Assembly (NCBI GenBank): GCA_045807565.1
Contig: JBJMHD010000149.1
Span: forward strand, 5,116-69,115
DNA length: 64,000 nt
Source of the DNA: Acidimicrobiales bacterium
GTDB lineage: Bacteria; Actinomycetota; Acidimicrobiia; Acidimicrobiales; VFJN01
Direction: 5' to 3'
The position numbers and the translations under genes were made by a program. Of this stretch, positions 1,538 through 60,297 are shown piece after piece (the first letter of the stretch is position 1; each line of letters begins with the position of its first letter). The notes beneath the pieces are model-generated. The model ran no database searches and was not told where the DNA came from. It worked only from the letters and a program-made list of their open reading frames with translations.

Positions 1538-1935
1538 CCGGCGCCGACGCGTCGGGGCGGCGGCAGCTCGAGGCGCTCGGCGAGCTCATCCGCAAGCAGC
1601 GCCAGCAGGCCGAGATGACCCTGCGCGACCTCGCCGAGAGGGCGAACGTGTCGAACCCCTACCTGAGCCAGATCGAACGAGGCCTCCACGAGCCGTCGGT
1701 GCGCGTCCTGAAGGGGATCGCCGGCGCGCTCAACGTCAGCGCCGAGCAGCTCCTGGTCCAGGCCGGCGTCCTCGAGGGGGTGGAGCACGAAGCGCCGCCG
1801 CCCCCGAGCGTCGAAGACGCCGTGAACGCCGACCCCCGCCTCAGCAAGGACCAGCGCGCCGCGCTGATGAGCGTGTACCGCAGCTTCGTGGAGGACGCTC
1901 CGGTCGCCGCGAAGCGGCCGCGCCGGCGCACGTGA
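1534..1935 (+). CDS. XRE-family HTH transcriptional regulator (Rv0474-like)
   Basis: GTG overlaps the CDF stop (GTGA); LGELIRKQRQQAEMTLRDLAERANVSNPYLSQIERGLHEPS is an XRE HTH. Confidence 0.88.
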   Translation: MTGADASGRRQLEALGELIRKQRQQAEMTLRDLAERANVSNPYLSQIERGLHEPSVRVLKGIAGALNVSAEQLLVQAGVLEGVEHEAPPPPSVEDAVNADPRLSKDQRAALMSVYRSFVEDAPVAAKRPRRRT

Positions 1936-1948
1936 TCCACGCGCGCGA

Positions 1949-1979
1949 GAGCGGCGCCTCGGGGGGAGAGGCGCCGCTC
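1949..1979. terminator. GC-rich hairpin between convergent genes
   Basis: GAGCGGCGCCTC-N7-GAGGCGCCGCTC, a perfect 12-bp stem downstream of the XRE stop. Confidence 0.65.
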
Positions 1980-2014
1980 ATCGCGCGAAGTCCCGTGGGG
2001 GACTCGGACGCAGG

Positions 2015-2040
2015 GGGTCGGTCGGGGTGTCGACCGACCC
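2015..2040. terminator. Second hairpin between convergent genes
   Basis: GGGTCGGTCG-GGGTGT-CGACCGACCC, a 10-bp stem just downstream of the stop at 2044. Confidence 0.6.
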
Positions 2041-2043
2041 GCT

Positions 2044-2349
2044 CTAGGCGGCCTTGACCGCGGGCTTCGTGGCCTTCTTGGTCTTGTAGCCGGCCAGCGG
2101 GGCCACCGTCTCGAGGACGGCGGTCACGAGCGCGGTGTTGGCGTCGATCAGCTTCTTCACGAAGGCGGTCTGGCTCTCCACGACCTCGATGGGCGTGGCC
2201 AGCGACGCGGGGTAGGTGACGGAGGGAAGGCGGTCACCGACGAGCTCGACGCCCTTGGAGACGTACTCGACGACGGTGGGCTTGGCGTCCTTGACGGCCT
2301 GGAGGATCTGGTCCTCGTAGCCCTCGACGGTGCTCAGGATGGTGCTCAT
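2044..2349 (-). CDS. Small amphipathic helical protein with Lys/Ala tail (HbhA/phasin-like)
   Basis: 101 aa from ATG 2349; strong GC3 codon bias; C-terminus YKTKKATKPAVKAA. Confidence 0.7.
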   Translation of the reverse strand: MSTILSTVEGYEDQILQAVKDAKPTVVEYVSKGVELVGDRLPSVTYPASLATPIEVVESQTAFVKKLIDANTALVTAVLETVAPLAGYKTKKATKPAVKAA

Positions 2350-2464
2350 GGTTGGAACGGTGCTCCTCGGTGGGGGGTGCTGCGGCAAGCAGTGCGCTAA
2401 CTATATCTAGCAGTTGCTTGATGCGTCAACGTGGCCTCCGTCACACCGCCTTACGGCGGGGCCG

Positions 2465-5400
2465 TCAGGCGGGGACGCCGACGGCGAGGGCGAACGCCTG
2501 CCGCCACCCGGTGTCGCTGACGCCCAGCTCGGCAAGGCGGGCTTCGGCCTCCGACAGGCGGGCGGGGGCGTCAGGGTCGCTGCGTGCGGTCGCGGCGGTG
2601 GCGTCGGCCAGGCGCACGAGCGTCTGCGACACGCGGTCCTCGGTGGCGTCGGCGGCTGCCCGCACCTGGTCGAACGCCGCGGTGGAGGCCGCGACATCGC
2701 CCCGCCGTGACAGCGCGAGGGCGCGAGCGATGCCCGCGGTGAGGCGGTCGAGGTAGCTCGCGCGCTCGTGGACGTCGACCTCGTCGGCGGCGGCCAGGGC
2801 CTCGTCGATCGAGCCGTTCGCCACGCTCGCCAGGGCGAGGGCCGAGTGCAGGTTCGGATCGATCTCGGGCGCCAGCCGCGCCTCGAGAGACGACATGAGC
2901 GCCACCGCTCCTGCCACGTCCCCGCACTGGAGGCGGTGGAGACCCAGCGACGTCGTGCGCTCCGTGTCACCGACGATCAGCTCTCCGTCGCCGCCGTCGG
3001 CGAGTGCGGGCGGGGACACCGCGAGCATCTGCTCGCTGCGGGCGACGTCGCCCACCTGCACCGTGGCCGCGAGCCCCGCCATCATCGCCACGATCAGCTC
3101 GCGCTCGCTGAGGGGCGTGCCGTCGCTCCGATCCATCGAGGCGACCATGTCGAGGCCCTCCTCCACCTGCCCGGAGAGGATCAGGGCGCGACCGAGCACG
3201 GCCGAGGACTGCGAGTGGCCGAAGTCGTCTTGGATCTCGTCGAAGAGCGCACGCGCCTCTCGCAGGCGATCGATGGCGCTCAGGGTCCGACCGGTCCACA
3301 GCCGAACGGATCCGGCCAGGATCAGCATCATGCCGACCGCCCACCGGTCGCCGCCGCGGTCGTCGGCGAGCACGGCCTCGGCCATGTCGCCGGCCTCGGT
3401 GGCGTGGCCCTGCTGGAAGCGAGCCCAGGCGAGGAGACCCCGCGCCCACCGCAGGCCCCCAGGATCGCCCAGCTCCTCGAAGGTGGCGGCCGCCTTGTGG
3501 AGCAGGACCTCGGCCTCGGCGACGCGACCCGAGTAGAACGCGCACCACGCGAGGTTCTGGCGCACCCACGCGATGCCGCGACGGTCCTCCAGCTCCTCGT
3601 ACCGCCGGAGCGCCTGCTCGAGCAGCGCGGTGGCGGCGGCGTACTCGTGCCGGGTGAGCGCGCCGAACCCGCGGAACCGGAGCACCTCCGCCTCGCCCGT
3701 CGCATCGCCGAGCTCCTCGAACACGTGGCCCGCTTCATCGAGAGCAGACTCCGAGGCGGCCCAGCTGGACGCCTTCTGCTCGATGTCGGCGAGCACCAGC
3801 AACGCCCGTCCGAGATCGCGCCGAGCGTCGCCTCCGGCGTGCCGGCTCTCCTCGACCGCGGCCACGGCGTCCGCTCGTGCCGGCGCGACCTCGCGCAGGC
3901 CGGCCAGCGCCCGGGCGCGGCCCATGAGGAACGTGCGGTGCCGCGGCCCGTGGCGGCCGCCCAGCAACCGCAGGCCCTCGCTGTAGAGGCGCTCGGCCAC
4001 CACGGACATCTCGGCCTGGTTGGCGCGGGCGGCCGCCTGCTCGAGCCAGTGGAGCGCGGGCTCGGCGAGATCGGTCGGAAGCCCCTCCACCGGACCGAGC
4101 TCCTTGAGGAGCTCGGCGGCGCGGACGTAGTGGTACGTGAGCCGGTCGATCACGGCGTCGTGGTCGGTGTCCTCGTGGACCTCCATCCAGGTGGCGATGC
4201 CGTAGTGGGATCGGGCGCGGTCAGCCTTGGTGAGGGTGCTGTAGGCCACCTCGCGCACGAGGTCGGAGCGGAAGGTCCACTTCTCGCTCTCCCCGGCACC
4301 GCTGAGCACGAGGAGCTCCTTGTCCTCCAGCGAGTGGAGGATCGGCCGCACGTCGGCGATGCCGAGGTGCTTCCCGGCCATGACCTCGATCGCGCTCATG
4401 GGGCCGCGGCGGCCGAGCACCGCGCAGTCGTCGAGGACACGCCGCTCGTCCACCGAGAGCCCGTCGAGGCGGGCGGACACCAGCCCGCGCAGGGTGTCGG
4501 GAAGGTCGATGTGGTCGTCGTGGTCGCCATGCCCGCGCACACCGACCATCCCCGCGTCGGACAGGAGGGTGACGAGCTCCTCGAGGAAGAAGGGGTTGCC
4601 GCCACTGCGCGCCAGCAGCTCCTTGGTGAGGCCCGCGCCCAGCTCCGCCCCCGCCAGCTCGCACAGGAGCGCCTCGGCGGACTCGGACGTGAGCGGGTCG
4701 AGGGTGAGCACGACGAGGTTGTGCCGGCCGTGCGGCGGGTGCCACCGCTCCTCGACCGCAGGACGAGCGGTGGCGAGCACCACGAACTTCCTCGACGACA
4801 GCCGGTCGAGCAGCGTGTCGACGAGCTCGAGCACCAAGTCGTCGGCCCAGTGCAGGTCGGACAGCACCACCACCACCGGACGATGCGCGGAGAAGCGCTC
4901 GGCGTAGGTGACGACCGCCGAGGTGGCCTCCTCGCGAGCGCGCGCCGGATCGATGCCGCGCAGCTCGGAGTCGTAGCCCATGAGGTAGAGCAGCCCCTGG
5001 TGGACCCGGTCCACCTCGGCGGGGCTGGCGTCCTCGCCGAGCGCGATGCACACGGAGGTGCGGGCCAGCTCGATGGCCTTGTCGACGGGATCGCTCGAGC
5101 GGATCCCGGCGCCGTGGCGCAGCGCATCGGCCACCGGCCACCAGATGTTCGCCTCGCCGTAGGGGACGCAGCGGCCCTCGAGGATGAGGGCGTTGTGCGC
5201 CTCCTCGGCGTGCCGGGCCAGCTCCTCGGCCAGGCGGGACTTGCCGACGCCCGCCTCGCCGAGCAGGAGCAGGAGCGAGGCTCGGGCGTTGCAGATGGCG
5301 TTCTCCACGCTGTTGCAGAGCAGGCCGAGCTCGGGCTCGCGGCCGATGAGCCGGGCCCGGTTCCGCTCGGGGCGGTAGCCAGGCGGGAGCTCGGCACCGT

Positions 5401-6913: not shown

Positions 6914-9489
6914 TGCTGAAGGTCACCCTCCGATCGTTCTGGGAGCACAAGCGCCGGCTCGTGCTCACGGTCATCTCGATCGTGCTCGGCGTGTCCTTCA
7001 TGGCGGCGACGTTCGTCCTGGGCGACACCTTCAACCGGTTCTTCGACGACCTCTTCTCCACCGGTGGCGAGAAGGTCGACGCCCAGGTCGAGGGCGACGT
7101 CACCCTCTCCGACCCCTTCAGCGGCCAGGACGAGCGGGCCCCGCTCCCCGAGTCGATGGTCGAGCAGGTGGCGGCCGTGCCGGGCGTGCGCGTGGCGGAG
7201 CCGTACGTGATCACCATCGGCTTCGGGACCACGAACCGGGTGCTCGGGCCCGATGGCAAGGCCCTCGGCGCGGCGCAGGGCCCGCCGACCCTCCTCGAGA
7301 GCTGGCGACCGCACAGCCAGCTCTCCGCGTACCGCGTCGAAGACGGCCGCGGCCCGGAGGCGGACGACGAGATCGCCCTCGACCTCGCCACCTTCGAGGA
7401 CTCCGGGTACGAGCTCGGCGACACCGTCACCGTCGTCACCCTCGACGGCAACAAGGACTACACCCTCGTCGGCACGGTGCGCTTCGGCACCGCGAAGAGC
7501 TCGGGCGGGGCGTTGTCGGCCGAGTTCACCCTCGCCGAGGCGCAGCGCCTGGCGGACCTCCCCGGACAGGTCGACCAGGTGGTCGCCGGCGCGGAGCCGG
7601 GGGTGAGCCAGGAGGAGCTGGCCGGCGCGATCCGGGAGGCGCTGCCGAAGGACGTCCACGTCCTCACCGGCAAGCAGGCCTCGGATCAGCTCTCCTCCGA
7701 CGTGCAGAGCGGCTTCTCGATCATCACGACGATCATCCAGGTGTTCGCCGGCATCGCGCTCCTGGTGGGGATCTTCGTGATCACCAACACGTTCTCGATC
7801 ATCGTGCAGCAACGCACCCGCGAGCTGGCCCTGCTCCGAGCCGTGGGCGCGGGTCGCCGGCAGGTGCTCACCTCCGTCCTGCTCGAGGCGATCCTCGTCG
7901 GGCTCATCGGCGCAGGCCTCGGGCTCCTCGTCGGCGTGGGTCTGGCGACCGCTTCCATCGCCGGGTTCGGAGCCGACCTCGGCGGCATCGTCCTGAGCGG
8001 CAAGACGGTGGGCGCGGCGCTGCTGATCGGATTGGTCGTCACGCTCGTGTCGGCTCTCGCGCCCGCCATCCGCGCCACGCGCGTGCCGCCGCTCGCCGCG
8101 CTGCGCGACGTGGCCATCGACCGATCGGGGGCGTCGAGGGCACGCGTGGCGCTGGGGGTGCTGATCACCCTCGCTGCCGCCTTCCTGCTGAGCACGATCT
8201 GGACAGGCGACAACACGACCGACGACATCGCGCCGATCATCATCGGCGCCCTCCTCGTCCTCGTGGCCGCGGTCATCGTCGGTCCGGTCCTGGCTGGTCC
8301 CAGCGTGCTCCTCGGGGGCAAGCCGCTCGCCAAGCTGTCGGGCATCACCGGTCGCCTGGCCGTCGAGAACGCGTCTCGCAGCCCGAAGCGGACCTCGGCC
8401 ACGGCCGCCGCCCTGCTCATCGGCGTCGCCCTGGTCGGGCTGCTGTCGGTGTTCGGGGCGTCGGCCAAGGCGTCCATCGACAAGGTGGTGAGCCGCGGGT
8501 TCAACGGCGACTTCGTGGTGCAGGCGGAGTCATCCGGCTTCGGGCCGGGCATCGGCGGCTTCTCCCCGGCCATCGCCGAGCAGGTCGTCGCCACCGAGGG
8601 GGTGGCGACCGTCGCGCCGCAGGCGCTGGCCGGCGCGCACCTCGTCTACCCGGACGGGGACGAGGCGGACGAGGTGATCACCGCCATGGACCCGAGCACC
8701 CTCACCGGGACCCTCGAGCCGACCATGGCCGAGGGCGCGGTGACCGACCTCACCGACGATGGGGTGATCGTCGACGTCGAGCGGGCCAGGGAACACGGGA
8801 TCTCGCTCGGGGACAAGATCCACTTCGTCCTCTCCGGCGGCGAGCAGCTGGACCTCAGGGTCGCGGCGTTGAGCGACGAGGAGAACCTGCTCGGGTTCTT
8901 CACCATGACCCGCGCCACGTACCAGGCGAACGCCAAGGCACCCCTCGACACGTTCCTCTACGGCACCGTCGACGACGGCGCCGACGTCGATGTCGTCGTC
9001 GACCGCGTCGACGAGGCAGTGGCGGCGACGCCGGGGCTGCAGGTGCTCGACAAGGAGGGCTTCATCGGCTCGATCGCCGATCAGGTGTCGTTCTTCCTCA
9101 ACTTCATCACCATCCTGCTGCTGCTCTCGATCGTCATCGCCCTGATCGGCGTGGCCAACACGCTGTCCCTGTCGATCAGCGAGCGGGTGCGGGAGCTCGG
9201 CCTCCTGCGGGCGGTGGGGATGGACCGTGTCCAGCTCAAGCGATCGATCCGCTGGGAGGCGATCCTGATCGCGATGCTCGGGACGACCGTCGGCGTCGCG
9301 CTGTCCGTGGGGCTGGGGTGGGCGCTGATGGAGGGCTTCGCCAGCCAGGGCTTCACCGAGTTCCGCGTGCCGGTCGGGTCGCTGGTCGTGCTGCTCGTCG
9401 CCGGTGCCGGGGTCGGGACCCTCGCGGCCATCCTCCCCGCCCGGCGCGCCGCGAAGCTCTCGATCCTCGACGCCATCGCCACGGACTGA
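6913..9489 (+). CDS. ABC transporter permease, double FtsX/MacB-like
   Basis: TGATG coupling to the ATPase; two FtsX-like repeats (QRTRELALLRAVG, ERVRELGLLRAVG) with large extracytoplasmic domains; 858 aa. Confidence 0.93.
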   Translation: MLKVTLRSFWEHKRRLVLTVISIVLGVSFMAATFVLGDTFNRFFDDLFSTGGEKVDAQVEGDVTLSDPFSGQDERAPLPESMVEQVAAVPGVRVAEPYVITIGFGTTNRVLGPDGKALGAAQGPPTLLESWRPHSQLSAYRVEDGRGPEADDEIALDLATFEDSGYELGDTVTVVTLDGNKDYTLVGTVRFGTAKSSGGALSAEFTLAEAQRLADLPGQVDQVVAGAEPGVSQEELAGAIREALPKDVHVLTGKQASDQLSSDVQSGFSIITTIIQVFAGIALLVGIFVITNTFSIIVQQRTRELALLRAVGAGRRQVLTSVLLEAILVGLIGAGLGLLVGVGLATASIAGFGADLGGIVLSGKTVGAALLIGLVVTLVSALAPAIRATRVPPLAALRDVAIDRSGASRARVALGVLITLAAAFLLSTIWTGDNTTDDIAPIIIGALLVLVAAVIVGPVLAGPSVLLGGKPLAKLSGITGRLAVENASRSPKRTSATAAALLIGVALVGLLSVFGASAKASIDKVVSRGFNGDFVVQAESSGFGPGIGGFSPAIAEQVVATEGVATVAPQALAGAHLVYPDGDEADEVITAMDPSTLTGTLEPTMAEGAVTDLTDDGVIVDVERAREHGISLGDKIHFVLSGGEQLDLRVAALSDEENLLGFFTMTRATYQANAKAPLDTFLYGTVDDGADVDVVVDRVDEAVAATPGLQVLDKEGFIGSIADQVSFFLNFITILLLLSIVIALIGVANTLSLSISERVRELGLLRAVGMDRVQLKRSIRWEAILIAMLGTTVGVALSVGLGWALMEGFASQGFTEFRVPVGSLVVLLVAGAGVGTLAAILPARRAAKLSILDAIATD

Positions 9490-51444: not shown

Positions 51445-52295
51445 GGCTGCGGGAGGCCGAGCAGCTCGGTGGCGGCGGCGAAGACCCGCCGCTGGAGGTC
51501 GCGATCGCGCAGCCGGCCGTCGCGAGGCAGCAGGCCCGCGCCCGGCGTGCTCGTGTGGAACCCGCCGGTCTGGCCTTGCTGTGCCGGGTCGCTCGCGAGC
51601 CGCACCACCACCGCCGCGCCCTGCTCCGGACGCCGCACCAGCGGCGTGCGCGCCAGCAACGTCGACGCGTGCGTGAAGCGCGACTCGGATCCGGCGAGGT
51701 TGGTGGCGACCAGGCCCGGACAGCACGAGCTGACATGGATGCCATCGCCGGCCACGCGCTCGGCGAGCTCCTGCATCACCAGCAGGAGGGCGAGCTTGGT
51801 GCGTCCGTAGAGGCGGTTCTGCTGGAGCCCGTTCGTGGCCGGGCCCCAGCTGCGGATGGTCGCCGGGTCGAGCCGGTCAGCGAACCGATGGGCCTCCGAC
51901 GCGACGTTCACGACGCGGCTCGGCGAGCCGGCGCGCAGCGGTGCCAGCAGGAGGCTGGTGAGCAGGAACGGAGACAGGAAGTTCGTGGCCACCATCGGAT
52001 CGAGCCCGTCCGACGTGCGCTCGCGCATCGTGGCGTTGATGCCGGCGTTGTTCACCAGGACGTCCAGGCGCGGCCAGCGAGCGGCGACGTCCTTCGCCAC
52101 CTGTCGCACCTGATCGAGCTCGGCGAGGTCGGCGATGAACACCTCCTCGACGCCGAGCTCCGCTGCCGCGCCTTCGGTCTTGGCCGGGTTCCGACCGATG
52201 ATGCCGACCTTGGCGCCGCGCCGCACGAGCTCGCGAGCGGCCTCCTTCCCGATGCCGGACGTGGCCCCGGTGACGATGACGTGTTCCCCATGCAT
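51441..52295 (-). CDS. Short-chain dehydrogenase/reductase
   Basis: TGATSGIG, LVNNAG, RVVNVAS, YGRTK. Confidence 0.92.
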   Translation of the reverse strand: MHGEHVIVTGATSGIGKEAARELVRRGAKVGIIGRNPAKTEGAAAELGVEEVFIADLAELDQVRQVAKDVAARWPRLDVLVNNAGINATMRERTSDGLDPMVATNFLSPFLLTSLLLAPLRAGSPSRVVNVASEAHRFADRLDPATIRSWGPATNGLQQNRLYGRTKLALLLVMQELAERVAGDGIHVSSCCPGLVATNLAGSESRFTHASTLLARTPLVRRPEQGAAVVVRLASDPAQQGQTGGFHTSTPGAGLLPRDGRLRDRDLQRRVFAAATELLGLPQP

Positions 52296-52326
52296 GCACC
52301 CATGGTGCACCACCTAGCCTCGGCCC

Positions 52327-53100
52327 ATGACCGAGGTCGGAACCGTCGCCCAGCTCTGGCGCTACCCGGTGAAGTCGTTCCAGGGCGAGCCCGTCGAGGA
52401 GCTCGCCATCGGCCCGGGCGGCGCCGACGGGGACCGCATCCTCGCCGTCGTCGACCCTGGCGCCAAGAAGGTCCTGTCGGCGAAGCGCTACGCCGACCTG
52501 CTGCTGGCGTCGGCGCGGCTCGACGGCACCCGGGTGGTCCTCACCTTGCCCGACGGCAGCGAGCACGCGTCCGACGACGCCGGCGTGCACGACGCCCTCT
52601 CCTCCTGGCTGGGCATGCCGGTGCGGCTCGAACCCCCGCCCACCGACGAGGTGTTCCCGATGGAGATGTACACGGGCATGTCGGACGAGGACTCGCCGCT
52701 CTTCGACTGGCCTGGCCCGCCCGGCACCTGGCTCGACCTCGCCGACTCGCACTGGGTCACCACCGCCAGCCTCGCCACGATCGCGGGCGAGCACCCCGAC
52801 GGCGAGTGGGACGTCCGGCGGTTCCGGCCGAACGGGCTGATCGAGACGGCCGCCGAGGGCTATCCCGAGGAGGGGTGGCCCACCTTCGAGCTCGGCGAGG
52901 TGCAGGTGGAGGTGCTGATGCCGACCATGCGCTGCTCGATGCCGTCGCGGGCCCAGCCCGGGCTCGAGCGAGACAAGGCCATCGGCACCACCATCCGGGA
53001 CGCGAACAGCAACAACCTGGGCGTCTACGCCCGGGTGACCAGGGGCGGAACGGTCAGGGTGGGCGATAGCGTGCACTCCACGCAGCACCCGGCTCCGTGA
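52327..53100 (+). CDS. MOSC domain protein
   Basis: LWRYPVKS, GDR, RRFRPN, PTMRC, NLGVYA. Confidence 0.9.
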   Translation: MTEVGTVAQLWRYPVKSFQGEPVEELAIGPGGADGDRILAVVDPGAKKVLSAKRYADLLLASARLDGTRVVLTLPDGSEHASDDAGVHDALSSWLGMPVRLEPPPTDEVFPMEMYTGMSDEDSPLFDWPGPPGTWLDLADSHWVTTASLATIAGEHPDGEWDVRRFRPNGLIETAAEGYPEEGWPTFELGEVQVEVLMPTMRCSMPSRAQPGLERDKAIGTTIRDANSNNLGVYARVTRGGTVRVGDSVHSTQHPAP

Positions 53101-53118
53101 GTTGACCGGTGGGTCAAC
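53101..53118. promoter_or_regulatory. Perfect dyad upstream of the glycosyltransferase operon
   Basis: GTTGACC-GGTG-GGTCAAC, containing a -35-like TTGACC. Confidence 0.5.
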
Positions 53119-53140
53119 AGCCCGAAAGGCTTGTCGGTCC

Positions 53141-54415
53141 ATGGCCAACGTCACCGCCAGCGACGCACCCCTCCGGATCGCCTACCTCACGTACCGGGGC
53201 AAGCCCCACGTCGGGGGCCAGGGCGTCTACACCCGCCACCTCGCCAAGGCGCTGGTCGACCTCGGCCACCACGTCGAGGTGCTGGGCGGGCAGCCGTACC
53301 CGGTGCTCGACGAGCGGGTGCCGCTGATCGAGCTCCCCAGCCTCGACATCTACAACGACCACTTCCCGATGCGGCAGCCCGGGATCTGGGAGCTCAAGGA
53401 CTGGAAGGACGTCCTCGAGGTCACGGCGTTCATCGGTGGCACGTTCCCCGAGCCCTTCGCCTTCTCGATGCGGGCGTGGGACCACCTCCGCCACCGCCAG
53501 GGCGACTTCGACATCGTCCAGGACAACCAGTGCCTCGGCTGGGGCCTGCTGCTCATCGAGCGCCAGCTCGGCATCCCCGTGCTCGGCACCATCCACCACC
53601 CGATCACCGTCGACCGCCGGCTCGAGATCGAGGCGGCCGAGAGCTGGTACAAGAAGCTCACGCTGCGCCGCTGGTACAGCTTCGTCGACATGCAGACGGA
53701 GGTCGCCCGCCGGCTGAAGCGGATCATCACGGTGTCCGAGAACTCGTTCAAGGACATCGTCCACGACCACAAGGTCGATCCCGAGCGGATGGCGGTCGTG
53801 CCGGTCGGTGTCGACGTCGAGCTGTTCAAGCCGGTCGAGCGCGTGTTCCCGATCTCGGGACGCCTCGTCACCACCGCATCGGCCGACGTCGCCATGAAGG
53901 GCCTCAAGTTCCTCCTCGAGGCGCTCGCCAAGCTCCGCACCGAGCGCGACGACGTGCACCTCGTGGTGATCGGCCGCCGGAAGCCCGGCGGCGCGAGCGA
54001 CGAGACGATCAAGCGCCTCGGGCTCGAGGACCACGTGGAGTTCGTCACCGGGGTGCCCGAGGACCGGATCATCGAGCTCTACTCGGAGGCGCAGCTCGCG
54101 GTGGTGCCGTCGCTGTACGAGGGCTTCTCGCTGCCCGCGATCGAGGCGATGTCCTGCGGCACCCCGTTGGTCGCCACCACCGGCGGTGCCATCCCCGAGG
54201 TCGTGGGCAAGGACGGCGACACCGCGCTGCTCGTGGAGCCTGGCAACAGCGAAGCGCTGGCCGCCAAGATCCGGTGGGCCCTCGACGAACCCGACCTGCG
54301 GGGCACGGTCGGCGCCCGAGGCCGCCAGCGCGTCATCGACCAGTGGTCCTGGCGGCACACGGCCGTGAAGACCGTCGAGCAGTACCGCATCCGGTTGGAG
54401 ATGGAGCAGAAGTAG
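53141..54415 (+). CDS. GT4 glycosyltransferase (ManT-like)
   Basis: KPHVGGQGVY, DNQCLG, TIHHPIT, SLYEGFSLPAIEAMSCG. Confidence 0.9.
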   Translation: MANVTASDAPLRIAYLTYRGKPHVGGQGVYTRHLAKALVDLGHHVEVLGGQPYPVLDERVPLIELPSLDIYNDHFPMRQPGIWELKDWKDVLEVTAFIGGTFPEPFAFSMRAWDHLRHRQGDFDIVQDNQCLGWGLLLIERQLGIPVLGTIHHPITVDRRLEIEAAESWYKKLTLRRWYSFVDMQTEVARRLKRIITVSENSFKDIVHDHKVDPERMAVVPVGVDVELFKPVERVFPISGRLVTTASADVAMKGLKFLLEALAKLRTERDDVHLVVIGRRKPGGASDETIKRLGLEDHVEFVTGVPEDRIIELYSEAQLAVVPSLYEGFSLPAIEAMSCGTPLVATTGGAIPEVVGKDGDTALLVEPGNSEALAAKIRWALDEPDLRGTVGARGRQRVIDQWSWRHTAVKTVEQYRIRLEMEQK

Positions 54416-55158
54416 TGCTCACGGTCCGGTTCGACCGGCTCGGCGTGCAGCCGGGCGACCTGCTGCTCGACATGGGCTGCGGAGCCGGACGTCACGCCTT
54501 CGAGTCCTTCAAGCGCGGGGCTCGGGTCGTCGCCTTCGACTACTCGGCCGCCGAGCTCAAGGACGTCGGTGGCCTCTTCGCGGCCATGCGCGACTCCGGG
54601 GAGGCTGGTCGCGAGCCGGGATCCATGGCGGCCACCACGAACGGCGACGCCCTCGCGCTGCCGTTCCCGTCGAACACGTTCGATCGGATCATCGCCAGCG
54701 AGGTGCTGGAGCACGTCAGCGACGACCAGGTGGCGCTGCAGGAGATCTTCCGCGTCTTGAAGCCGGGCGGCACGCTGGCGGCCACCGTGCCGTCATGGCT
54801 CCCGGAGCAGATCTGCTGGGCGCTGTCGGAGGAGTACCACGCACCCTTCGTCGAGGGCGGGCACGTTCGCATCTACTCGGAGCCGCAGCTGCGCGGCCGG
54901 ATGCGCCAGGCCGGACTGAAGCCCGGCTTCGCCCACCACGCCCACGCCCTGCACTCGCCCTACTGGTGGCTGAAGTGCGCGGTGGGACCGACCAACGACG
55001 ACAACCCCCTCGTGAAGGCGTACCTGCAGGTGCTCATCTGGGACATCGCGCAGGAGCAGCCGATGGGCACGGTCACGCGCTGGGCCGAGCGCCTCCTGAA
55101 CCCGGTGCTCGGGAAGAGCCTGGTCGTCTACGCCAGCAAGCCCGGTAGGGAGGCGTAG
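54415..55158 (+). CDS. Class I SAM-dependent methyltransferase (type 11; MeT3-like by context)
   Basis: TAGTG coupling; LLDMGCGAGRH, FDRIIASEVLEH, GGHVRIY, HALHSPYWWLKC. Confidence 0.88.
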   Translation: MLTVRFDRLGVQPGDLLLDMGCGAGRHAFESFKRGARVVAFDYSAAELKDVGGLFAAMRDSGEAGREPGSMAATTNGDALALPFPSNTFDRIIASEVLEHVSDDQVALQEIFRVLKPGGTLAATVPSWLPEQICWALSEEYHAPFVEGGHVRIYSEPQLRGRMRQAGLKPGFAHHAHALHSPYWWLKCAVGPTNDDNPLVKAYLQVLIWDIAQEQPMGTVTRWAERLLNPVLGKSLVVYASKPGREA

Positions 55159-55160
55159 GC

Positions 55161-56216
55161 GTGCCCGTCAACGTCCCCGGGCTCGTGTCGGCCACCGACC
55201 TCCACGCCACCCTCGACGGCATCGCCGAATGGCAGCTGCCGTCCGGGATGATCCCCTGGTTCCCCGGCGGGCACGCCGACCCGTGGAACCACGTGGAAGC
55301 GGCCATGGCGCTCGATGTGGGGGGCCGCCGGGCCGAGGCCGACCGCGCCTACGAGTGGCTCGTGGACCTCCAGCGCGAGGACGGGTCCTGGCACCAGTAC
55401 TACATCGCAGGCGACGACGGCTCGACGCTCGTGGAGCAGGACAAGCTCGACGCCAACGTGTGCGCCTTCGTGGCCGCCGGCGTGTGGCACCGATGGCTCC
55501 TCACCGACGACAAGGGGTTCGTGGAGGAGCTGTGGCCGGTGGTCGAGAAGGCGATCGACTTCGTGCTCGAGCTCCAGACGCCGCGTGGCGAGATCCTGTG
55601 GGCTCGCCACGCCGACGGCACCCCCTGGAGCTTCGCCCTGCTCACCGGTTCCAGCTCGATGTGCCACAGCCTCCGCTGTGCCATCGGGATCGCCGAGCTG
55701 CTGGGGCACGAGCGGCCCGACTGGGAGATCTCGGCGGCCCGGCTGGCCCATGCCGTGCGGGAGATCCCGGAGGCCTTCGCCCCCAAGCACCGCTGGGCGA
55801 TGGACTGGTACTACCCGGTCCTCGGCGGCGTGGTGCTCGGCGAGGCGGGTCGTGCGCGGCTCGATGGCCGCAAGGACACCTTCCTGATGGACGGCAGAGG
55901 CGTCCGCTGCGTGTCGGACCGTCCGTGGATCACCGTCGCCGAGACGTGCGAGTGCGCCATGGCGTACCTCGCCGTGGGTGAGCGGGAGATGGCCCACACC
56001 CTCTTCGGGTGGGCGCAGCAGTTCCGCCACGACGAGGACGGCCGCTACTGGACCGGCACCGTGTTCCCCGACGAGGCCCGCTTCCCCGGCGGCGAGCGCA
56101 GCACCTACACCGCCGCCAGCGTCATCCTCGCCGCCGACGCCCTCGCCGGCAGCACGCCCGCCAGCGCCCTCTTCGTCGAGACCGCCGGCGTGTTGCCCCC
56201 GTTGATGGACATGTAG
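55161..56216 (+). CDS. (alpha/alpha)6-barrel protein, prenyltransferase-like (MmpH-like glycoside hydrolase by context)
   Basis: DPWNHVEAAMAL, LQREDGSW, MDWYYP, PWITVAETCE, STYTAA. Confidence 0.75.
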   Translation: MPVNVPGLVSATDLHATLDGIAEWQLPSGMIPWFPGGHADPWNHVEAAMALDVGGRRAEADRAYEWLVDLQREDGSWHQYYIAGDDGSTLVEQDKLDANVCAFVAAGVWHRWLLTDDKGFVEELWPVVEKAIDFVLELQTPRGEILWARHADGTPWSFALLTGSSSMCHSLRCAIGIAELLGHERPDWEISAARLAHAVREIPEAFAPKHRWAMDWYYPVLGGVVLGEAGRARLDGRKDTFLMDGRGVRCVSDRPWITVAETCECAMAYLAVGEREMAHTLFGWAQQFRHDEDGRYWTGTVFPDEARFPGGERSTYTAASVILAADALAGSTPASALFVETAGVLPPLMDM

Positions 56217-56398
56217 GGCACGCACGGCGGGACGCCGCGAGCCTGGCTGGCCGAGACGGGCTGGTCGATGGCATCAGGTCAAGGGCGCGGCGACGACAGC
56301 GACGATCCCCGTCCGCCCCCGCCCCGCATGCCTGCGACATCTCGCGGCCGATCTGGCCATCTGGTGTCGCAAGCTCGCGCGGTGCAGTCCAGCGCAGC

Positions 56399-57019
56399 TC
56401 AGACGCGCCGGAGCACGCGCAGGCTGCCGACCCTTGCCATCTCCGTGAAGGCGCCCGATTCGATGGCGGGCTTGTAGATCTGCTCGTACGGGGCTTGGCC
56501 GCCGTCGGCGGGGTCCTCGAAGACGTCGTGGATGCAGAAGGTGCCGCCGGTGACCAGGTGCGGGGTCCAGAGGTCGTGGTCGAGGCGCGCGGGCTCGGCG
56601 CCGTGGCCGCCATCGATGAAGAGGAACGCCAGCGGGGTGGCCCACGCTCGCGCGACCGTCGGCGAGTCCCCGACGACGGCGACCACGGTGCCCTCCAGGC
56701 CGGCGTCGTGCACCGTCTTGCGGAAGAAGGGCAGCGTGTCCATCTTCCCGACGGCGGGATCCACGAGGTCCGGTTCGTGCCACTCCCACCCGGGCTGGTT
56801 CTCCTCGGAGCCGCGGTGGTGGTCGACGGTGAACAGCACCCGACCGAGCTGTCGGGCGGCGGCGCCGAGGTACACCGACGACTTCCCGCAGTAGGTGCCG
56901 ACCTCGAGGAGAGGGCCCTCCGCGTCGACGGCGAGCGCGGCGTCGTGCAGGGCACGCCCCTCCTCGGCGGGCATGAACCCGCGGGCCGCCTCCGCGTGCC
57001 GGCGGAGGTCGTCGTCCAC
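56399..57019 (-). CDS. Class I SAM-dependent methyltransferase (Methyltransf_24; MeT1-like)
   Basis: GFMPAEEG, EVGTYCGKS, DHHRGSEENQPGWE, FIDGGH, HDVFEDPADGGQAP; GTG overlaps the upstream TAG. Confidence 0.85.
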   Translation of the reverse strand: MDDDLRRHAEAARGFMPAEEGRALHDAALAVDAEGPLLEVGTYCGKSSVYLGAAARQLGRVLFTVDHHRGSEENQPGWEWHEPDLVDPAVGKMDTLPFFRKTVHDAGLEGTVVAVVGDSPTVARAWATPLAFLFIDGGHGAEPARLDHDLWTPHLVTGGTFCIHDVFEDPADGGQAPYEQIYKPAIESGAFTEMARVGSLRVLRRV

Positions 57020-57678
57020 TACCAGGTCTCGACGTGGATGATCCGGTCGAGGTCGCGCCGGGGGCCGGGCTTGAAGTCGGTGCCACCGAGCGGGTGGGCG
57101 ACGGGGATGAGCGCGCCCTGCATCACGTGGTCGGGGATGCCGAGGAGCTCGGCCGTCTCCTTCTCCTTCACCAGGTGCAGGGTCGTGTAGCACGACGCCA
57201 ACCCGCGGGCTCGAGCAGCGAGCTGGAAGCTCCACACCGCCGGGAGGAGGGAGCCCCACTGGGAGGCCTGCCACACTGCCGGTGCGCCGTCGGTGCGGCC
57301 CTCGATGCAGGCGATCACCCACAGGGGCACGTCCGCCAGGTGGTCGGCGAGGTAGTCGGCGGAGTCGATCACCTTGCTCGTGGTGGACACGTAGGCGGTG
57401 TCCTCCTGCGGGAGGTTGCCGAGGACAGCGTCCTTGCTGCCGTAGAACGCCTTGAACGCCTCGCGGTACCACCCGGCGATCGGCCGCATCTTCTCCTTGT
57501 CCGTGACGATCACCCAGTGCCACCCCTGGTTGTTGCCACCGGTGGGCGCCTGGGTGGCGACGTCGATGCACTCGCGGATCACCGCCAGGTCGACCGGCGT
57601 CTCCAGGTCGAGGCGCTTCCGCACCGAGCGGGTGGTGGAGAGCAGCTGGTCCGGATCGAGGGGCAGGAGCGTCGACAT
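57019..57678 (-). CDS. Nitroreductase family protein
   Basis: LLSTTRSVRKRLD, AP.GGNNQGW, ARARGL..C.TTLH. Confidence 0.9.
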   Translation of the reverse strand: MSTLLPLDPDQLLSTTRSVRKRLDLETPVDLAVIRECIDVATQAPTGGNNQGWHWVIVTDKEKMRPIAGWYREAFKAFYGSKDAVLGNLPQEDTAYVSTTSKVIDSADYLADHLADVPLWVIACIEGRTDGAPAVWQASQWGSLLPAVWSFQLAARARGLASCYTTLHLVKEKETAELLGIPDHVMQGALIPVAHPLGGTDFKPGPRRDLDRIIHVETW

Positions 57679-57700
57679 GGCCCGGGACGCTAACCCGCGG

Positions 57701-58174
57701 TCAGGTGGCGGGGTGGTCCTCCTGCGACAGGACCTCATCCTTCTCGGAGTGCCCGAACATGATCTGATCGAGGAAGAGGAACTTCGCCACCCAGAGGATG
57801 CCGAACCCCGCGAGGTTGGCCGCCATCACGAGGAGGGTGGAGTCCGAGATGTCCTCGGCGATGGCCACCAGGGCCGTGGACAGGGCGAGGCCGGCACCGG
57901 TGAACACCCAGAACGGCAGGATCTCCCGCCGCACGCTGATCTTGCCGTCCACGTTCCACACCCAGCGCTTGTTCAGGAAGAACACCGGTATGGCGCAGAT
58001 CATCACGGCTGCCACGTTCGACCGCGTGGCGTCCATGTCGAGGAGCCCGACGTAGATCGCCAGCTGGAGCTGGGTGAGGGCGACGCCGAACACCGAGACC
58101 ATCGAGTACTTGATCGCCAGGTCGCCCCGGCCTCCGGTGACCCGATCGAGCAGCGCAGCAGGAGACAGCTTCAC
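57701..58174 (-). CDS. GtrA-family membrane protein
   Basis: 4 TM; KYSMVSVFG, SNVAA, FLNKRWVW, KFLFLDQIMF. Confidence 0.82.
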   Translation of the reverse strand: MKLSPAALLDRVTGGRGDLAIKYSMVSVFGVALTQLQLAIYVGLLDMDATRSNVAAVMICAIPVFFLNKRWVWNVDGKISVRREILPFWVFTGAGLALSTALVAIAEDISDSTLLVMAANLAGFGILWVAKFLFLDQIMFGHSEKDEVLSQEDHPAT

Positions 58175-58218
58175 GACATCGGAGCCTACGGGGAGGTCCT
58201 CGAGGAACCCCGCATCGC

Positions 58219-59400
58219 TCAGTCCACCAGGGCGTTCGCCTGGGCGATCCGACCGAGCCATCGCGCGCTCGCCTTGGGGGTGCGCTCGAAGGTGTGCCGA
58301 TCGCAGTCGACGATCCCGAACCGGGGGCCGTAGCCGTACGCCCACTCGAAGTTGTCGAGGAGGCTCCAGTACGTGTAGCCGCGCACGTCGATGCCCTCGT
58401 CGATGCAGTCGAGCACGCCATCGAGGGCGGTGCGGACGTAGGCGACGCGCTGCTCGTCGTCGTCGGTGCCGATGCCGTTCTCGGTGACGATGATCGGCAC
58501 CTCGCCCTTGGTGTACTCCCAGGCCCGGCGGATCGTGGCGGCCAGCGACTCGGGGTAGTACTCGTAGCCCATGATCAGCGTCGGCACGCCGTCCTCGGGG
58601 CCCAGCACCCCGTCCGGCCCGACGCGGGTGCGCGAGTACGTCTGCACGCCGACGAAGTCGTCGCCCACGGTGGCGTCGAAGAACACGTCCTCCATGCTCC
58701 TGCGGATCTGGTCGAGCTTGGACTCGCCCCCGTCCACCGCCTGGTAGTCGCTCATGGCGAGGGTGATGCCCACCGGCACGCCCGGCGCGCTGGCGCGGAT
58801 GGCGTCCACGCCGGCGCGGTGGCTGCGCACGAAGACCTCGTTCACGCGGCGGCGAGCGTCGCGGTCGCGCTTGCCCGGCGGGAAGGCGCCGCCGAGGTAC
58901 CCGATGGTGGACACCATGCTCGGCTCGTTGATCGTGCACGCCCGCGCCATCACCCCATCGAGCCGGGCGGCCGCCTTCGCGCAGTAGGCGGCGAAGCGCT
59001 CCGGCATGTCGTCGCGCTCCCATCCACCGAGGTCGGCGAGCCAGATCGGCGTGGTGAAGTGGTGGAAGGTGACAACCGGCGCGATCCCGGCCGCACGGAG
59101 CCCCTCGCACACCCGGGCGTAGTGGTCCAAGGCCACCGTGGACCACTCGCCCTCGGCGGGCTCGATGCGGCTCCACTCCAGGCTGAAGCGGTAGTCGGTG
59201 AACCCGAGCTCCTTCAGCAGGGCGATGTCCTCCGGCCAGCGGTGCCAGCTGTCGCAGCAGTCGCCGCTGGACTCCTTGCAGCCCGACTCCGGGTCGTGCT
59301 CCCAGCGCCACCAGTCGTTGTTGACGTTGCCGCCCTCGATCTGGTGGGCGGCGGTCGCGGTCCCCCAGCGGAACCCGTCGGGGAAGGCGCGTGCGGACAT
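58219..59400 (-). CDS. Glycoside hydrolase family 1 (beta-glucosidase)
   Basis: WGTATAAHQIEG, RFSLEWSRIEP, TINEP, VTENG, YWSLLDNFEW. Confidence 0.95.
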   Translation of the reverse strand: MSARAFPDGFRWGTATAAHQIEGGNVNNDWWRWEHDPESGCKESSGDCCDSWHRWPEDIALLKELGFTDYRFSLEWSRIEPAEGEWSTVALDHYARVCEGLRAAGIAPVVTFHHFTTPIWLADLGGWERDDMPERFAAYCAKAAARLDGVMARACTINEPSMVSTIGYLGGAFPPGKRDRDARRRVNEVFVRSHRAGVDAIRASAPGVPVGITLAMSDYQAVDGGESKLDQIRRSMEDVFFDATVGDDFVGVQTYSRTRVGPDGVLGPEDGVPTLIMGYEYYPESLAATIRRAWEYTKGEVPIIVTENGIGTDDDEQRVAYVRTALDGVLDCIDEGIDVRGYTYWSLLDNFEWAYGYGPRFGIVDCDRHTFERTPKASARWLGRIAQANALVD

Positions 59401-59442
59401 GGGCGGGACCGTACCTCCGGTCTCGTACGCGAGGATGGCCCG

Positions 59443-60297
59443 ATGTCCCAGGACGCCGTCGACGCGCTGGTGGCGCTGCTCGACCTCGAACCGATCGAGG
59501 TCAACATCTTCCGTGGCGTGTCCCCGGACGAGGATCGTCAGCGCGTGTTCGGTGGCCAGGTCGCCGGGCAGGCGCTCGTCGCGGCCGCCCGCACCGTGGA
59601 GCCCGGCCGGTCCGTCCACTCGCTCCACGCCTACTTCCTCCGCCCCGGCGACGTGCGCGTGCCGATCCTCTACGAGGTGGACCGCATCCGCGACGGCCGC
59701 TCGTTCACCACCCGCAGGGTCGTCGCCATCCAGCACGGACGGGCCATCTTCAACCTGCAGTGCAGCTTCCAGGTGCCTGAGGACGGCCTCGAGTTCGAGG
59801 CGCCCATGCCCGACGTCCCTGACCCGGAGAGCCTTCCGGACTTCACCGCCCGCATGGCGCCGTACGCCGACAAGATGGGCGACTGGTACCTCCGGCCGCG
59901 GCCCATCGACATGCGCCACGTCGACCTCACCCCGCCCGACGAGCCGGGGCCCCGATCGCCGTTCCAACAGGTGTGGCTCCGTGCCGACGGCATGTTGCCG
60001 GACGACCCGGTGCTCCACGCGTGCGTCGTCACCTACGCGAGCGACATGACGCTCCTCGACACCGCGGTGCGGCCCCATGGGCGCGTGTGGGGCGACGAGG
60101 GGCTGATGATGGCGAGCCTCGACCACGCCATGTGGTTCCACCGGTCCTTCCGGGCCGACGAGTGGCTCCTCTACGACCAGGACACGCCGTCCTCGTCGGG
60201 CAGCCGCGGCGTGGGCCGCGGGAACATCTTCACCCGTGGTGGGCACCTCGCGGTCACGGTCGTGCAGGAGGGTCTGATCAGGGTGATGCGAGCTTGA
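59443..60297 (+). CDS. tesB: Acyl-CoA thioesterase II
   Basis: VFGGQVAGQAL, HSLHAYFLRPGD, RDGRSFTTRRV, ASLDHAMWFHR, VVQEGLIR. Confidence 0.95.
   Translation: MSQDAVDALVALLDLEPIEVNIFRGVSPDEDRQRVFGGQVAGQALVAAARTVEPGRSVHSLHAYFLRPGDVRVPILYEVDRIRDGRSFTTRRVVAIQHGRAIFNLQCSFQVPEDGLEFEAPMPDVPDPESLPDFTARMAPYADKMGDWYLRPRPIDMRHVDLTPPDEPGPRSPFQQVWLRADGMLPDDPVLHACVVTYASDMTLLDTAVRPHGRVWGDEGLMMASLDHAMWFHRSFRADEWLLYDQDTPSSSGSRGVGRGNIFTRGGHLAVTVVQEGLIRVMRA

What the first reader, a model, noticed from the sequence alone, without database searches (positions are those of the whole stretch)
53141..57019. Methylmannose polysaccharide (MMP)-like four-gene cluster outside the mycobacteria
Seen: GT4, type-11 methyltransferase and alpha/alpha-barrel genes form an operon, converging on a Methyltransf_24 gene. 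Established: mycobacterial MMP synthesis uses ManT (GT4), a 3-O-methyltransferase, MeT1 (1-O-methyltransferase) and the recycling hydrolase MmpH; MMPs bind long acyl-CoAs and are known from mycobacteria, Nocardia and Streptomyces. The 56399-57019 motifs match my recollection of MeT1 closely; the other three assignments rest on family and context. Inference: this apparently deep-branching actinobacterium makes an intracellular methylated mannan, which would imply an older origin and a role not tied to mycolic acids.
Basis: partly seen in the sequence, partly recalled or inferred. Interest (0 to 1): 0.72.

Follow-up and report, generated by a model that had tools for sequence, protein, structure and literature searches.

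The report
Methylmannose polysaccharide genes in Acidimicrobiales
An uncultured soil bacterium of the family Microthrixaceae carries intact counterparts, in the same order, of the four mycobacterial genes that build, cap, cut and re-grow a small intracellular methylated mannose polymer. The finding is correct, but it adds a member to a known and widespread system rather than a new one.

Summary
Window 53141-57019 holds a tightly coupled plus-strand operon of GT4, Methyltransf_11 and an (alpha/alpha)6-barrel gene. A Methyltransf_24 gene converges on it.

Three of the products match the solved M. hassiacum MMP enzymes far better than anything else in the PDB:
- ManT (7QSG): E 2.7e-117, next best 1e-22.
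- MmpH (7QSJ): E 2e-105.
- MeT1 (6G7D): E 2e-70.

The fourth is the reciprocal best hit of mycobacterial pMeT3. Gene order and orientation match those of a mycobacterial genome.

The genome is a soil MAG of Microthrixaceae (class Acidimicrobiia), not a known MMP producer. The cluster was found in:
- 29 of 31 relatives;
- all 22 other Acidimicrobiales sampled;
- 68 of 401 Actinomycetota.

All four genes also occur in a cultured gammaproteobacterium (Cellvibrio).

A FAS-I marker domain is absent from this genome and 12 relatives, so the classical FAS-I and mycolate role cannot apply here.

In the Acidimicrobiales MmpH, Asp47 and Glu262 are kept, but Asp50 is Asn, Phe102 is Val and Trp315 is Tyr.

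No chemistry exists for this lineage, so the product is inferred.

Verdict: first reading supported; new member of a known kind; moderate interest.

The parts
53141..54415 (+). manT orthologue: GT4 alpha-(1->4)-mannosyltransferase, 424 aa
   Evidence: Pfam Glycos_transf_1 and Glyco_transf_4. phmmer against the PDB gives 7QSG (M. hassiacum ManT) at E 2.7e-117, with the next chain at 1e-22. Gly15, His142, Lys240, Glu313, Gly314, Phe315, Leu317 and Glu321 are kept; Leu291 is Val and Asp293 is Glu (residues from PMC9883506). The mycobacterial ManT finds this gene as its best hit in G000.
54415..55158 (+). pmeT3 orthologue: class I SAM methyltransferase (Methyltransf_11), putative MMP 3-O-methyltransferase, 247 aa
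   Evidence: Pfam PF08241. No close PDB relative. It is a reciprocal best hit with the gene lying between manT and mmpH in mycobacterial genome G168: E 2.4e-85 against 1.5e-10 for the next hit in one direction, and 3.7e-82 in the other. The GTG start overlaps the ManT stop by 1 nt.
55161..56216 (+). mmpH orthologue: (alpha/alpha)6-barrel MMP endo-alpha-(1->4)-mannosidase, 351 aa
   Evidence: phmmer against the PDB gives 7QSJ (MmpH) at E 2e-105; squalene-hopene cyclase reaches only 1e-3. Asp47, Trp49, Asn101, Thr163, Met215, Tyr219, Glu262 and Glu265 are kept. Asp50 is Asn, Phe102 is Val and Trp315 is Tyr.
56217..56398 (.). 182-nt convergent intergenic spacer between the mmpH and meT1 stop codons
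   Evidence: Sequence. No consensus terminator was found. The median spacer in Acidimicrobiales loci is 92 nt, and the genes converge in 53 of 53 loci.
56399..57019 (-). meT1 orthologue: Methyltransf_24 MMP 1-O-methyltransferase, 206 aa
   Evidence: Pfam PF13578. The only PDB match is 6G7D/6G80/6H40 (M. hassiacum MeT1), at E 2e-70 over residues 6-205. The mycobacterial MeT1 finds this gene best in G000. Forty-six positions are at least 97% conserved across 83 orthologues, including the DHHxGSEE, DGxH and HDVF motifs.
57019..57738 (-). Context: nitroreductase-family gene, translationally coupled to meT1
   Evidence: Pfam PF00881. Its stop TAG shares one base with the meT1 GTG. It lies next to meT1 in 16 of 53 Acidimicrobiales loci.
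57701..58174 (-). Context: GtrA-like small membrane protein (start approximate)
   Evidence: Pfam PF04138. Start-codon candidates. It lies next to meT1 in 36 of 53 Acidimicrobiales loci and in 0 of 12 loci of other lineages.
58219..59400 (-). Context: GH1 beta-glucosidase-like gene, first gene of the minus-strand run GH1-GtrA-nitroreductase-meT1
   Evidence: Pfam PF00232 and TIGR03356. Best PDB hits are 4R27 and S. griseus SGR_2426. It lies near meT1 in 31 of 53 Acidimicrobiales loci.
52327..53100 (+). Context: MOSC-domain gene directly upstream of manT
   Evidence: Pfam MOSC and MOSC_N. Conserved upstream of manT within the genus and in some other Acidimicrobiales.

Best explanation
The four genes are true orthologues of the mycobacterial MMP cluster. 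They most likely make and recycle a cytoplasmic 3-O-methyl-alpha-(1->4)-mannose oligomer or polymer by the mechanism worked out in M. hassiacum and M. smegmatis:
1. ManT extends alpha-(1->4)-oligomannoside primers from GDP-mannose.
2. pMeT3 methylates the 3-OH groups.
3. MeT1 caps the reducing-end 1-OH.
4. MmpH cuts mature chains into defined fragments that prime new chains.

Shown here: orthology of all four proteins, conservation of the mutationally tested catalytic residues, identical gene order and orientation, purifying conservation across the order, and a plausible GDP-mannose supply.

Inferred: the enzymatic specificities, the product, and its role. The host has no FAS-I marker, and Acidimicrobiia are not known to make mycolic acids (general knowledge, not tested here). 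The polymer therefore probably acts as a general cytoplasmic binder or buffer of long acyl chains, or in cold adaptation, rather than as a FAS-I regulator.
For: - PDB matches to ManT, MmpH and MeT1 at E 2.7e-117, 2e-105 and 2e-70, with no comparable second hit.
- The PDB entries are identified as ManT and MmpH in PMC9883506.
- Reciprocal best hits hold for all four genes between G000 and a mycobacterial genome whose MmpH is 85% identical to 7QSJ.
- Mycobacterial locus L097 has the same layout, ManT+ MeT3+ MmpH+ MeT1-.
- The catalytic residues tested by mutagenesis are conserved: MmpH Glu262 and Asp47, ManT Glu313, Glu321 and Lys240.
- The cluster is intact in 29 of 31 relatives and in all 22 other sampled Acidimicrobiales, and 62 of 80 named loci hold all four genes.
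- Start and stop codons are tightly coupled.
- G000 has two ManC-like mannose-1-phosphate guanylyltransferase candidates.
- Short soil metatranscriptome contigs, 90-99% alike, lie on manT, pmeT3 and mmpH. This is weak evidence.
Against: - No 3-O-methylmannose or MMP has been reported from any Acidimicrobiia; a full-text search found none.
- pMeT3 has not been characterised biochemically even in mycobacteria.
- The Acidimicrobiales MmpH differs at three cleft residues (Asp50Asn, Phe102Val, Trp315Tyr), and Asp50Ala drastically reduced activity in M. hassiacum.
- ManT Asp293, predicted to read the guanine base, is Glu here.
- Identity to the mycobacterial enzymes is only 47-57%, so chain length, extra substituents or even the sugar could differ.
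- The transcript evidence comes from relatives' short contigs, not demonstrably from this organism.
Confidence: 0.8

Rival explanations
1. The cluster makes a related but chemically distinct polymethylated polysaccharide. Examples would be an acylated form like the acetylated MMP of Streptomyces griseus, a different chain length, a different methylation pattern or a different cleavage register. The Acidimicrobiales enzymes have drifted in their substrate-contact residues.
For: - The lineage-wide MmpH substitutions Asp50Asn, Phe102Val/Thr and Trp315Tyr lie in the cleft.
- ManT has Leu291Val and Asp293Glu.
- Identity to the characterised enzymes is only 47-57%.
- S. griseus is already known to make an acetylated variant (PMC9883506).
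- In Acidimicrobiales, meT1 sits in a lineage-specific run with GtrA-like and GH1 genes in 49 of 53 loci.
Against: - No acyltransferase or extra tailoring gene is conserved within the four-gene block.
- The residues that make the mannose and GDP contacts in ManT, and the catalytic pair of MmpH, are unchanged.
- Asp50Asn is a common natural variant (43 of 188 full-length family members) that always retains Asp47 and almost always Glu262. This looks like tolerated variation rather than a new specificity.
Confidence: 0.14
2. The genes serve a cell-envelope or lipid-linked glycan rather than a soluble cytoplasmic polymer. The link would be through the neighbouring GtrA-like membrane protein.
For: A GtrA-like gene or a GH1 gene lies upstream of meT1 on the same strand in 49 of 53 Acidimicrobiales loci. 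By general knowledge, GtrA-family proteins are linked to polyprenyl-phosphate sugar handling.
Against: - None of the four proteins matched a membrane-domain family in Pfam, and each aligns along its length with a crystallised mycobacterial enzyme.
- GtrA and GH1 are absent beside the cluster in all 12 loci scored from other lineages, including two of the three mycobacterial loci. They are therefore not part of the conserved system.
- Shared vertical synteny explains the linkage equally well.
Confidence: 0.04
3. The cluster is an artefact: contaminating mycobacterial or Streptomyces DNA binned into the MAG, or a decaying remnant.
For: G000 is a 177-contig MAG with about 4% estimated contamination. 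It holds a second, partial cluster on a 4.3-kb contig, C46.
Against: - The window copy lies on a 70-kb contig with uniform GC of 70-75% and GC3 above 0.9.
- Its nearest relatives at 81-93% identity are other Microthrixaceae and Acidimicrobiales MAGs with the same flanking genes.
- In the tree it sits inside the Acidimicrobiales clade.
- All four reading frames are open.
Confidence: 0.02

Closest known systems
Mycobacterial MMP gene cluster meT1-mmpH-pmeT3-manT (M. hassiacum MHAS_04402-04405; M. smegmatis MSMEG_6481-6484; Ripoll-Rozada 2019, Maranha 2023, PMC9883506)
   Same: All four proteins are orthologous: PDB E-values of 1e-70 to 1e-117 and reciprocal best hits. The order and orientation are the same (manT, pmeT3 and mmpH converging with meT1). 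The mutationally validated residues are the same: MmpH Asp47 and Glu262, ManT Lys240, Glu313 and Glu321.
   Different: - The host is an Acidimicrobiia MAG with no FAS-I marker domain; mycolic acids are not known in this class (general knowledge).
- Amino-acid identity is 47-57%.
- MmpH has Asn50, Val102 and Tyr315 in place of Asp, Phe and Trp.
- ManT has Val291 and Glu293.
- meT1 is the last gene of a GH1-GtrA-nitroreductase-meT1 run that is specific to Acidimicrobiales.
- No product has been demonstrated.
Acetylated MMP (AMMP) of Streptomyces griseus and the corresponding Streptomyces gene set
   Same: This is a non-mycolate actinobacterium in which a 3-O-methylmannose polymer has been found chemically (PMC9883506). 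The large-genome family f44 (probably Streptomyces) carries the same four genes.
   Different: In the f44 (probably Streptomyces) loci, meT1 lies 4-5 kb from mmpH, and MmpH keeps the mycobacterial Asp50, Phe102 and Trp315. In the tree these sequences fall in the clade with the mycobacteria, not with the Acidimicrobiales.
GH15 glucodextranase and GH125 exo-alpha-1,6-mannosidase (structural neighbours of MmpH), and squalene-hopene cyclase or 'prenyltransferase' (the usual automatic annotation)
   Same: They share the (alpha/alpha)6-barrel fold. There is a weak NCBIfam hit to a GH15-type 'oligosaccharide amylase' and weak repeat-level hits to squalene-hopene cyclase.
   Different: The E-values are 1e-14 and 1e-3, against 1e-105 for MmpH. 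The common database names for this protein, 'prenyltransferase' and 'terpene cyclase', are misannotations.

Membership tests
MMP biosynthesis and recycling cluster (ManT-pMeT3-MmpH-MeT1) | ManT: a GT4 GT-B enzyme orthologous to M. hassiacum ManT, with the Gly-rich loop Gly15, His142, Lys240, Glu313-Gly-Phe and Glu321 | tested here: met
   7QSG at E 2.7e-117, next PDB hit 1e-22. All listed residues are conserved; Leu291 is Val and Asp293 is Glu. The reverse best hit falls in G000.
MMP biosynthesis and recycling cluster (ManT-pMeT3-MmpH-MeT1) | pMeT3: a Methyltransf_11 enzyme encoded between manT and mmpH | tested here: met
   Reciprocal best hit with the gene between manT and mmpH in mycobacterial genome G168: 2.4e-85 against 1.5e-10 for the next hit, and 3.7e-82 in the reverse direction. 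Identity is 56-57%.
MMP biosynthesis and recycling cluster (ManT-pMeT3-MmpH-MeT1) | MmpH: an (alpha/alpha)6-barrel endomannosidase with catalytic base Glu262 and an acid at Asp47 or Asp50 | tested here: met
   7QSJ at E 2e-105. Glu262, Glu265 and Asp47 are conserved; Asp50 is Asn in this protein and in essentially all Acidimicrobiales copies. In 188 full-length family members, position 47 is Asp in 173, position 50 is Asp in 130 and Asn in 43.
MMP biosynthesis and recycling cluster (ManT-pMeT3-MmpH-MeT1) | MeT1: a Methyltransf_24 1-O-methyltransferase | tested here: met
   6G7D is the only PDB hit, at E 2e-70 over nearly the full length, and the reverse best hit agrees. The literature catalytic residues could not be checked because the 2019 PNAS paper is not held.
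MMP biosynthesis and recycling cluster (ManT-pMeT3-MmpH-MeT1) | Conserved gene arrangement: manT, pmeT3 and mmpH co-directional, with meT1 adjacent | tested here: met
   The order and convergent orientation are the same as in mycobacterial loci L097-L099. The arrangement is convergent in 53 of 53 Acidimicrobiales loci.
MMP biosynthesis and recycling cluster (ManT-pMeT3-MmpH-MeT1) | The product is a 1-O-methyl-capped 3-O-methyl-alpha-(1->4)-mannan that binds long acyl chains | not testable with these tools
   This needs extraction and GC-MS, ESI-MS or NMR from a cultured carrier. No report was found in the held literature.
MMP biosynthesis and recycling cluster (ManT-pMeT3-MmpH-MeT1) | Donor supply: a GDP-mannose pathway in the same genome | tested here: inconclusive
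   Two NTP_transferase genes have NF052502 (mannose-1-phosphate guanylyltransferase) as their best NCBIfam hit, at 285-296 bits, which is below the 440-bit cut-off. One is fused to a phosphohexomutase domain. For the unfused gene, several of the best PDB hits are GDP-mannose pyrophosphorylases.
Mycobacterial FAS-I-linked role of MMP | Presence of a type I fatty acid synthase for the polymer to modulate | tested here: not met
   PF08354 is absent from G000 and 12 relatives, while the C. glutamicum control is positive. G000 has no open frame near 3000 aa.

The most novel reading that the evidence does not exclude
MMP-type polymethylated mannans are not a mycobacterial speciality. On this reading they are an old, vertically inherited cytoplasmic acyl-chain chaperone of Actinomycetota, also present in Proteobacteria, and they work independently of FAS-I and mycolic acids.

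In Microthrixaceae, whose best-known member specialises in taking up and storing long-chain fatty acids (my own knowledge, not tested here), the polymer would buffer acyl-CoA or free fatty acids, possibly for cold adaptation in soil.

The natural Asp50Asn variation would also settle Asp47 as the catalytic acid of MmpH.
Probability: 0.3. Interest if true: 0.65.

Novelty: new member of a known kind. Interest (0 to 1): 0.42.

Why it matters
MMP is described in the literature as a polymer of non-tuberculous mycobacteria, with an acetylated form in S. griseus, and its proposed role is tied to FAS-I and envelope lipid synthesis.

An intact, conserved and near-universal cluster in Acidimicrobiales, a distant and mostly uncultured soil and water class that lacks FAS-I, points to a more general function. 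Acyl-chain buffering and cold adaptation are the candidates.

Cultured, non-pathogenic carriers such as Aquihabitans could be used to test this.

The result also corrects a widespread misannotation of MmpH homologues as 'prenyltransferase/terpene cyclase'. It gives natural-variation evidence that Asp47, not Asp50, is the general acid.

It is not a new kind of system, and the same cluster has already been noted repeatedly in this scan.

Tried and rejected
- The 2019 PNAS paper on MeT1 (by DOI and by PMC6338870) is not held. MeT1 catalytic residues were therefore judged only by conservation.
- The promoter and terminator scan of 52200-59700 found nothing, which is uninformative at 72% GC.
- Looking for FAS-I by listing very long open frames gave mostly spurious high-GC frames. 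It was replaced by the PF08354 marker search with a control.
- RNA evidence: the best metatranscriptome runs hold only 5-12% of the sampled words. Laid contigs are 80-200 nt and mostly 90-95% alike, so they come from relatives and not demonstrably from this organism.
- A generic EPS or cell-wall GT4 plus methyltransferase cluster was rejected because of the 95-order-of-magnitude gap between ManT and the next GT4 in the PDB.
- A squalene-hopene-cyclase or prenyltransferase reading of the barrel protein was rejected.
- Mycobacterial contamination of the MAG was rejected.
- The tree was built with the quick, non-mixture method. One very long branch (L112) falls outside the Acidimicrobiales clade and its place is not trusted.

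Full report
**What is there**

The window has about 72% GC, so real genes were picked by third-position GC and by open reading frames. The region holds eight genes:
- a MOSC gene, 52327-53100 (+);
- a GT4 gene, 53141-54415 (+);
- a Methyltransf_11 gene, 54415-55158 (+);
- a 351-aa gene with no Pfam hit, 55161-56216 (+);
- on the other strand, a Methyltransf_24 gene, 57019-56399;
- a nitroreductase gene, 57738-57019;
- a GtrA-like gene, about 58174-57701;
- a GH1 gene, 59400-58219.

The plus-strand genes are translationally coupled. The GT4 stop and the methyltransferase start read TAGTG and share one base. The next junction is TAG-gc-GTG behind a GGAGG. The Methyltransf_24 GTG shares one base with the nitroreductase stop.

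The only change is the methyltransferase start, which is 54415 and not 54412.

**Identity of the four proteins**

Searched against all PDB sequences:
- The GT4 protein hits 7QSG at E 2.7e-117, and the next glycosyltransferase reaches only 1e-22.
- The unassigned protein hits 7QSJ at 2e-105, and squalene-hopene cyclase reaches only 1e-3.
- The Methyltransf_24 protein has a single hit, 6G7D/6G80/6H40, at 2e-70.

Maranha et al. 2023 (PMC9883506) identify 7QSG as M. hassiacum ManT and 7QSJ as MmpH. They describe the cluster as MeT1, MmpH, pMeT3 and ManT.

pMeT3 has no solved structure, so it was tested by reciprocal best hit. A phylum-wide genome search with the 7QSJ sequence found genome G168, whose MmpH is 85% identical to that of M. 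hassiacum. Its locus L097 reads ManT+, MeT3+, MmpH+, MeT1-, the same order and orientation as the window.
- The window methyltransferase finds the G168 gene directly upstream of mmpH at 2.4e-85, against 1.5e-10 for the next methyltransferase.
- All four G168 proteins find the window genes as their best hits in the window's own genome.

**Residues**

Residues were taken from the paper.
- In ManT, Gly15, His142, Lys240, Glu313, Gly314, Phe315, Leu317 and Glu321 are conserved. Leu291 is Val and Asp293 is Glu.
- In MmpH, Asp47, Trp49, Asn101, Thr163, Met215, Tyr219, Glu262 and Glu265 are conserved. Asp50 is Asn, Phe102 is Val and Trp315 is Tyr.
- This triple change is shared by essentially all Acidimicrobiales copies. 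The mycobacterial family and the large-genome (probably Streptomyces) family keep Asp, Phe and Trp.

Among 188 full-length family members, position 47 is Asp in 173. Position 50 is Asp in 130 and Asn in 43. The paper could not decide between Asp47 and Asp50 as the catalytic acid. The natural variation favours Asp47. This is an inference.

**Whose genome**

The genome is a 3.5-Mb MAG of 177 contigs, 92% complete. The window sequence is found in soil metagenomes. The closest named loci, at 81-93% identity, are 'uncultured Microthrixaceae bacterium' and 'Acidimicrobiales bacterium' MAGs. Microthrixaceae belongs to Acidimicrobiales, Acidimicrobiia, Actinomycetota. It is not a known MMP-producing genus.

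**Distribution**

- MmpH homologues occur in 29 of 31 relatives.
- They occur in all 22 other Acidimicrobiales in a phylum-wide sample, and in 2 of 8 genomes from other Acidimicrobiia orders.
- Overall they occur in 68 of 401 Actinomycetota genomes, or 43 of 249 genera.
- Of 80 named Acidimicrobiales loci, 62 hold all four genes. Most of the rest are cut off by a contig end or by the 6-kb flank.
- Cultured carriers exist, for example Aquihabitans sp. McL0605 (L052).

A concatenated four-protein tree puts the Acidimicrobiales sequences in one clade (SH-aLRT 100). The mycobacterial family, the probably Streptomyces family and several other families fall in another clade (97). This fits mainly vertical descent with losses. 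It was built with a quick method, and one long branch is unplaced.

The family has 405 clusters at 50% identity with E up to 1e-30.

It also extends beyond the phylum. A distant representative's nearest named relatives are Cellvibrio, Haliea, Halieaceae, Litorivivens and Thioalkalivibrio. Cellvibrio sp. PSBB006 has a manT-pmeT3-mmpH operon at 42-46% identity, plus a meT1 homologue at 53% identity about 80 kb away. Earlier notes of this scan said the same for Proteobacteria and for four other Acidimicrobiia genomes. I treated those notes as leads and verified them only to this extent.

**Physiological setting**

- A FAS-I marker domain (PF08354) is absent from G000 and 12 relatives, while the C. 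glutamicum control is positive.
- G000 holds two candidate mannose-1-phosphate guanylyltransferases. One is fused to a phosphohexomutase domain.
- Short soil metatranscriptome contigs, 90-99% alike, lie on manT, pmeT3, mmpH and the GH1 gene. This shows that relatives transcribe these genes, but it is weak evidence for this organism.

**Mechanism**

The best-supported reading is the published self-recycling scheme:
1. MmpH cuts mature chains into tetra- to octamannosides.
2. ManT extends them from GDP-mannose.
3. pMeT3 adds the 3-O-methyl groups.
4. MeT1 caps free reducing ends.

Orthology and residue conservation are shown here. The activities, the product and the role are inferred. The main rival is a chemically modified variant of the polymer, given the cleft substitutions. 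An envelope role through the GtrA neighbour and an artefact are both unlikely.

**Literature**

A full-text search found no report of MMP or its genes in Acidimicrobiia. [quoted passage not shown] Some JGI records already name such proteins 'MMP endo-(1,4)-3-O-methyl-alpha-D-mannosidase'.

**Verdict**

This is a new member of a known kind. Interest is moderate.

Noticed in passing
window 56399-59400 (minus strand): meT1 is the last gene of a co-directional run GH1, GtrA-like, nitroreductase, meT1, and its start overlaps the nitroreductase stop by one base. A GtrA-like or GH1 gene lies beside meT1 in 49 of 53 Acidimicrobiales loci, but in 0 of 12 loci from other lineages. This may be a functional link or merely inherited synteny.
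   Followed up: partly
own genome, contig C46 (4261 nt), positions 1921-4260: A second manT-pmeT3-mmpH set, with mmpH cut by the contig end, is 70-77% identical in protein to the window copy. Most relatives have one copy, so it is probably another Acidimicrobiales population binned into the MAG rather than a paralogue.
   Followed up: partly
own genome, contig C125, about 80859-82060: A distant MeT1-like Methyltransf_24 gene (33% identity) lies next to a Methyltransf_11-like gene (34% identity to pMeT3). This is a separate methyltransferase pair of unknown role.
   Followed up: no
own genome, contig C103, about 8131-8826 and downstream: An 828-aa fusion joins a mannose-1-phosphate-guanylyltransferase-like NTP_transferase domain to a phosphohexomutase domain. 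It could perform two consecutive steps of GDP-mannose synthesis in one polypeptide.
   Followed up: partly
L118 (Cellvibrio sp. PSBB006, CP021382.1, 3708787-3719854) and L119: A cultured gammaproteobacterium has a manT-pmeT3-mmpH operon at 42-46% identity to the window proteins. Its meT1 homologue (53% identity) lies about 80 kb away.
   Followed up: partly
L117 (ENA ERZ26051695 contig_10): A 39%-GC metagenome contig of unknown lineage carries GT4, Methyltransf_11 and an MmpH-like gene (37% identity), with a Methyltransf_24 gene 5 kb downstream on the other strand.
   Followed up: no
relatives G015 (C1:1650000-1651047) and G007 (C2:69048-70095): In two genomes of the same genus, an mmpH copy is broken into pieces. 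One has an in-frame TGA and the other frame shifts. These could be pseudogenes or long-read assembly errors.
   Followed up: no
databases: MmpH homologues are widely annotated as 'prenyltransferase', 'terpene cyclase/mutase family protein' or 'hypothetical protein'. Only a few JGI records carry the MMP endomannosidase name.
   Followed up: no
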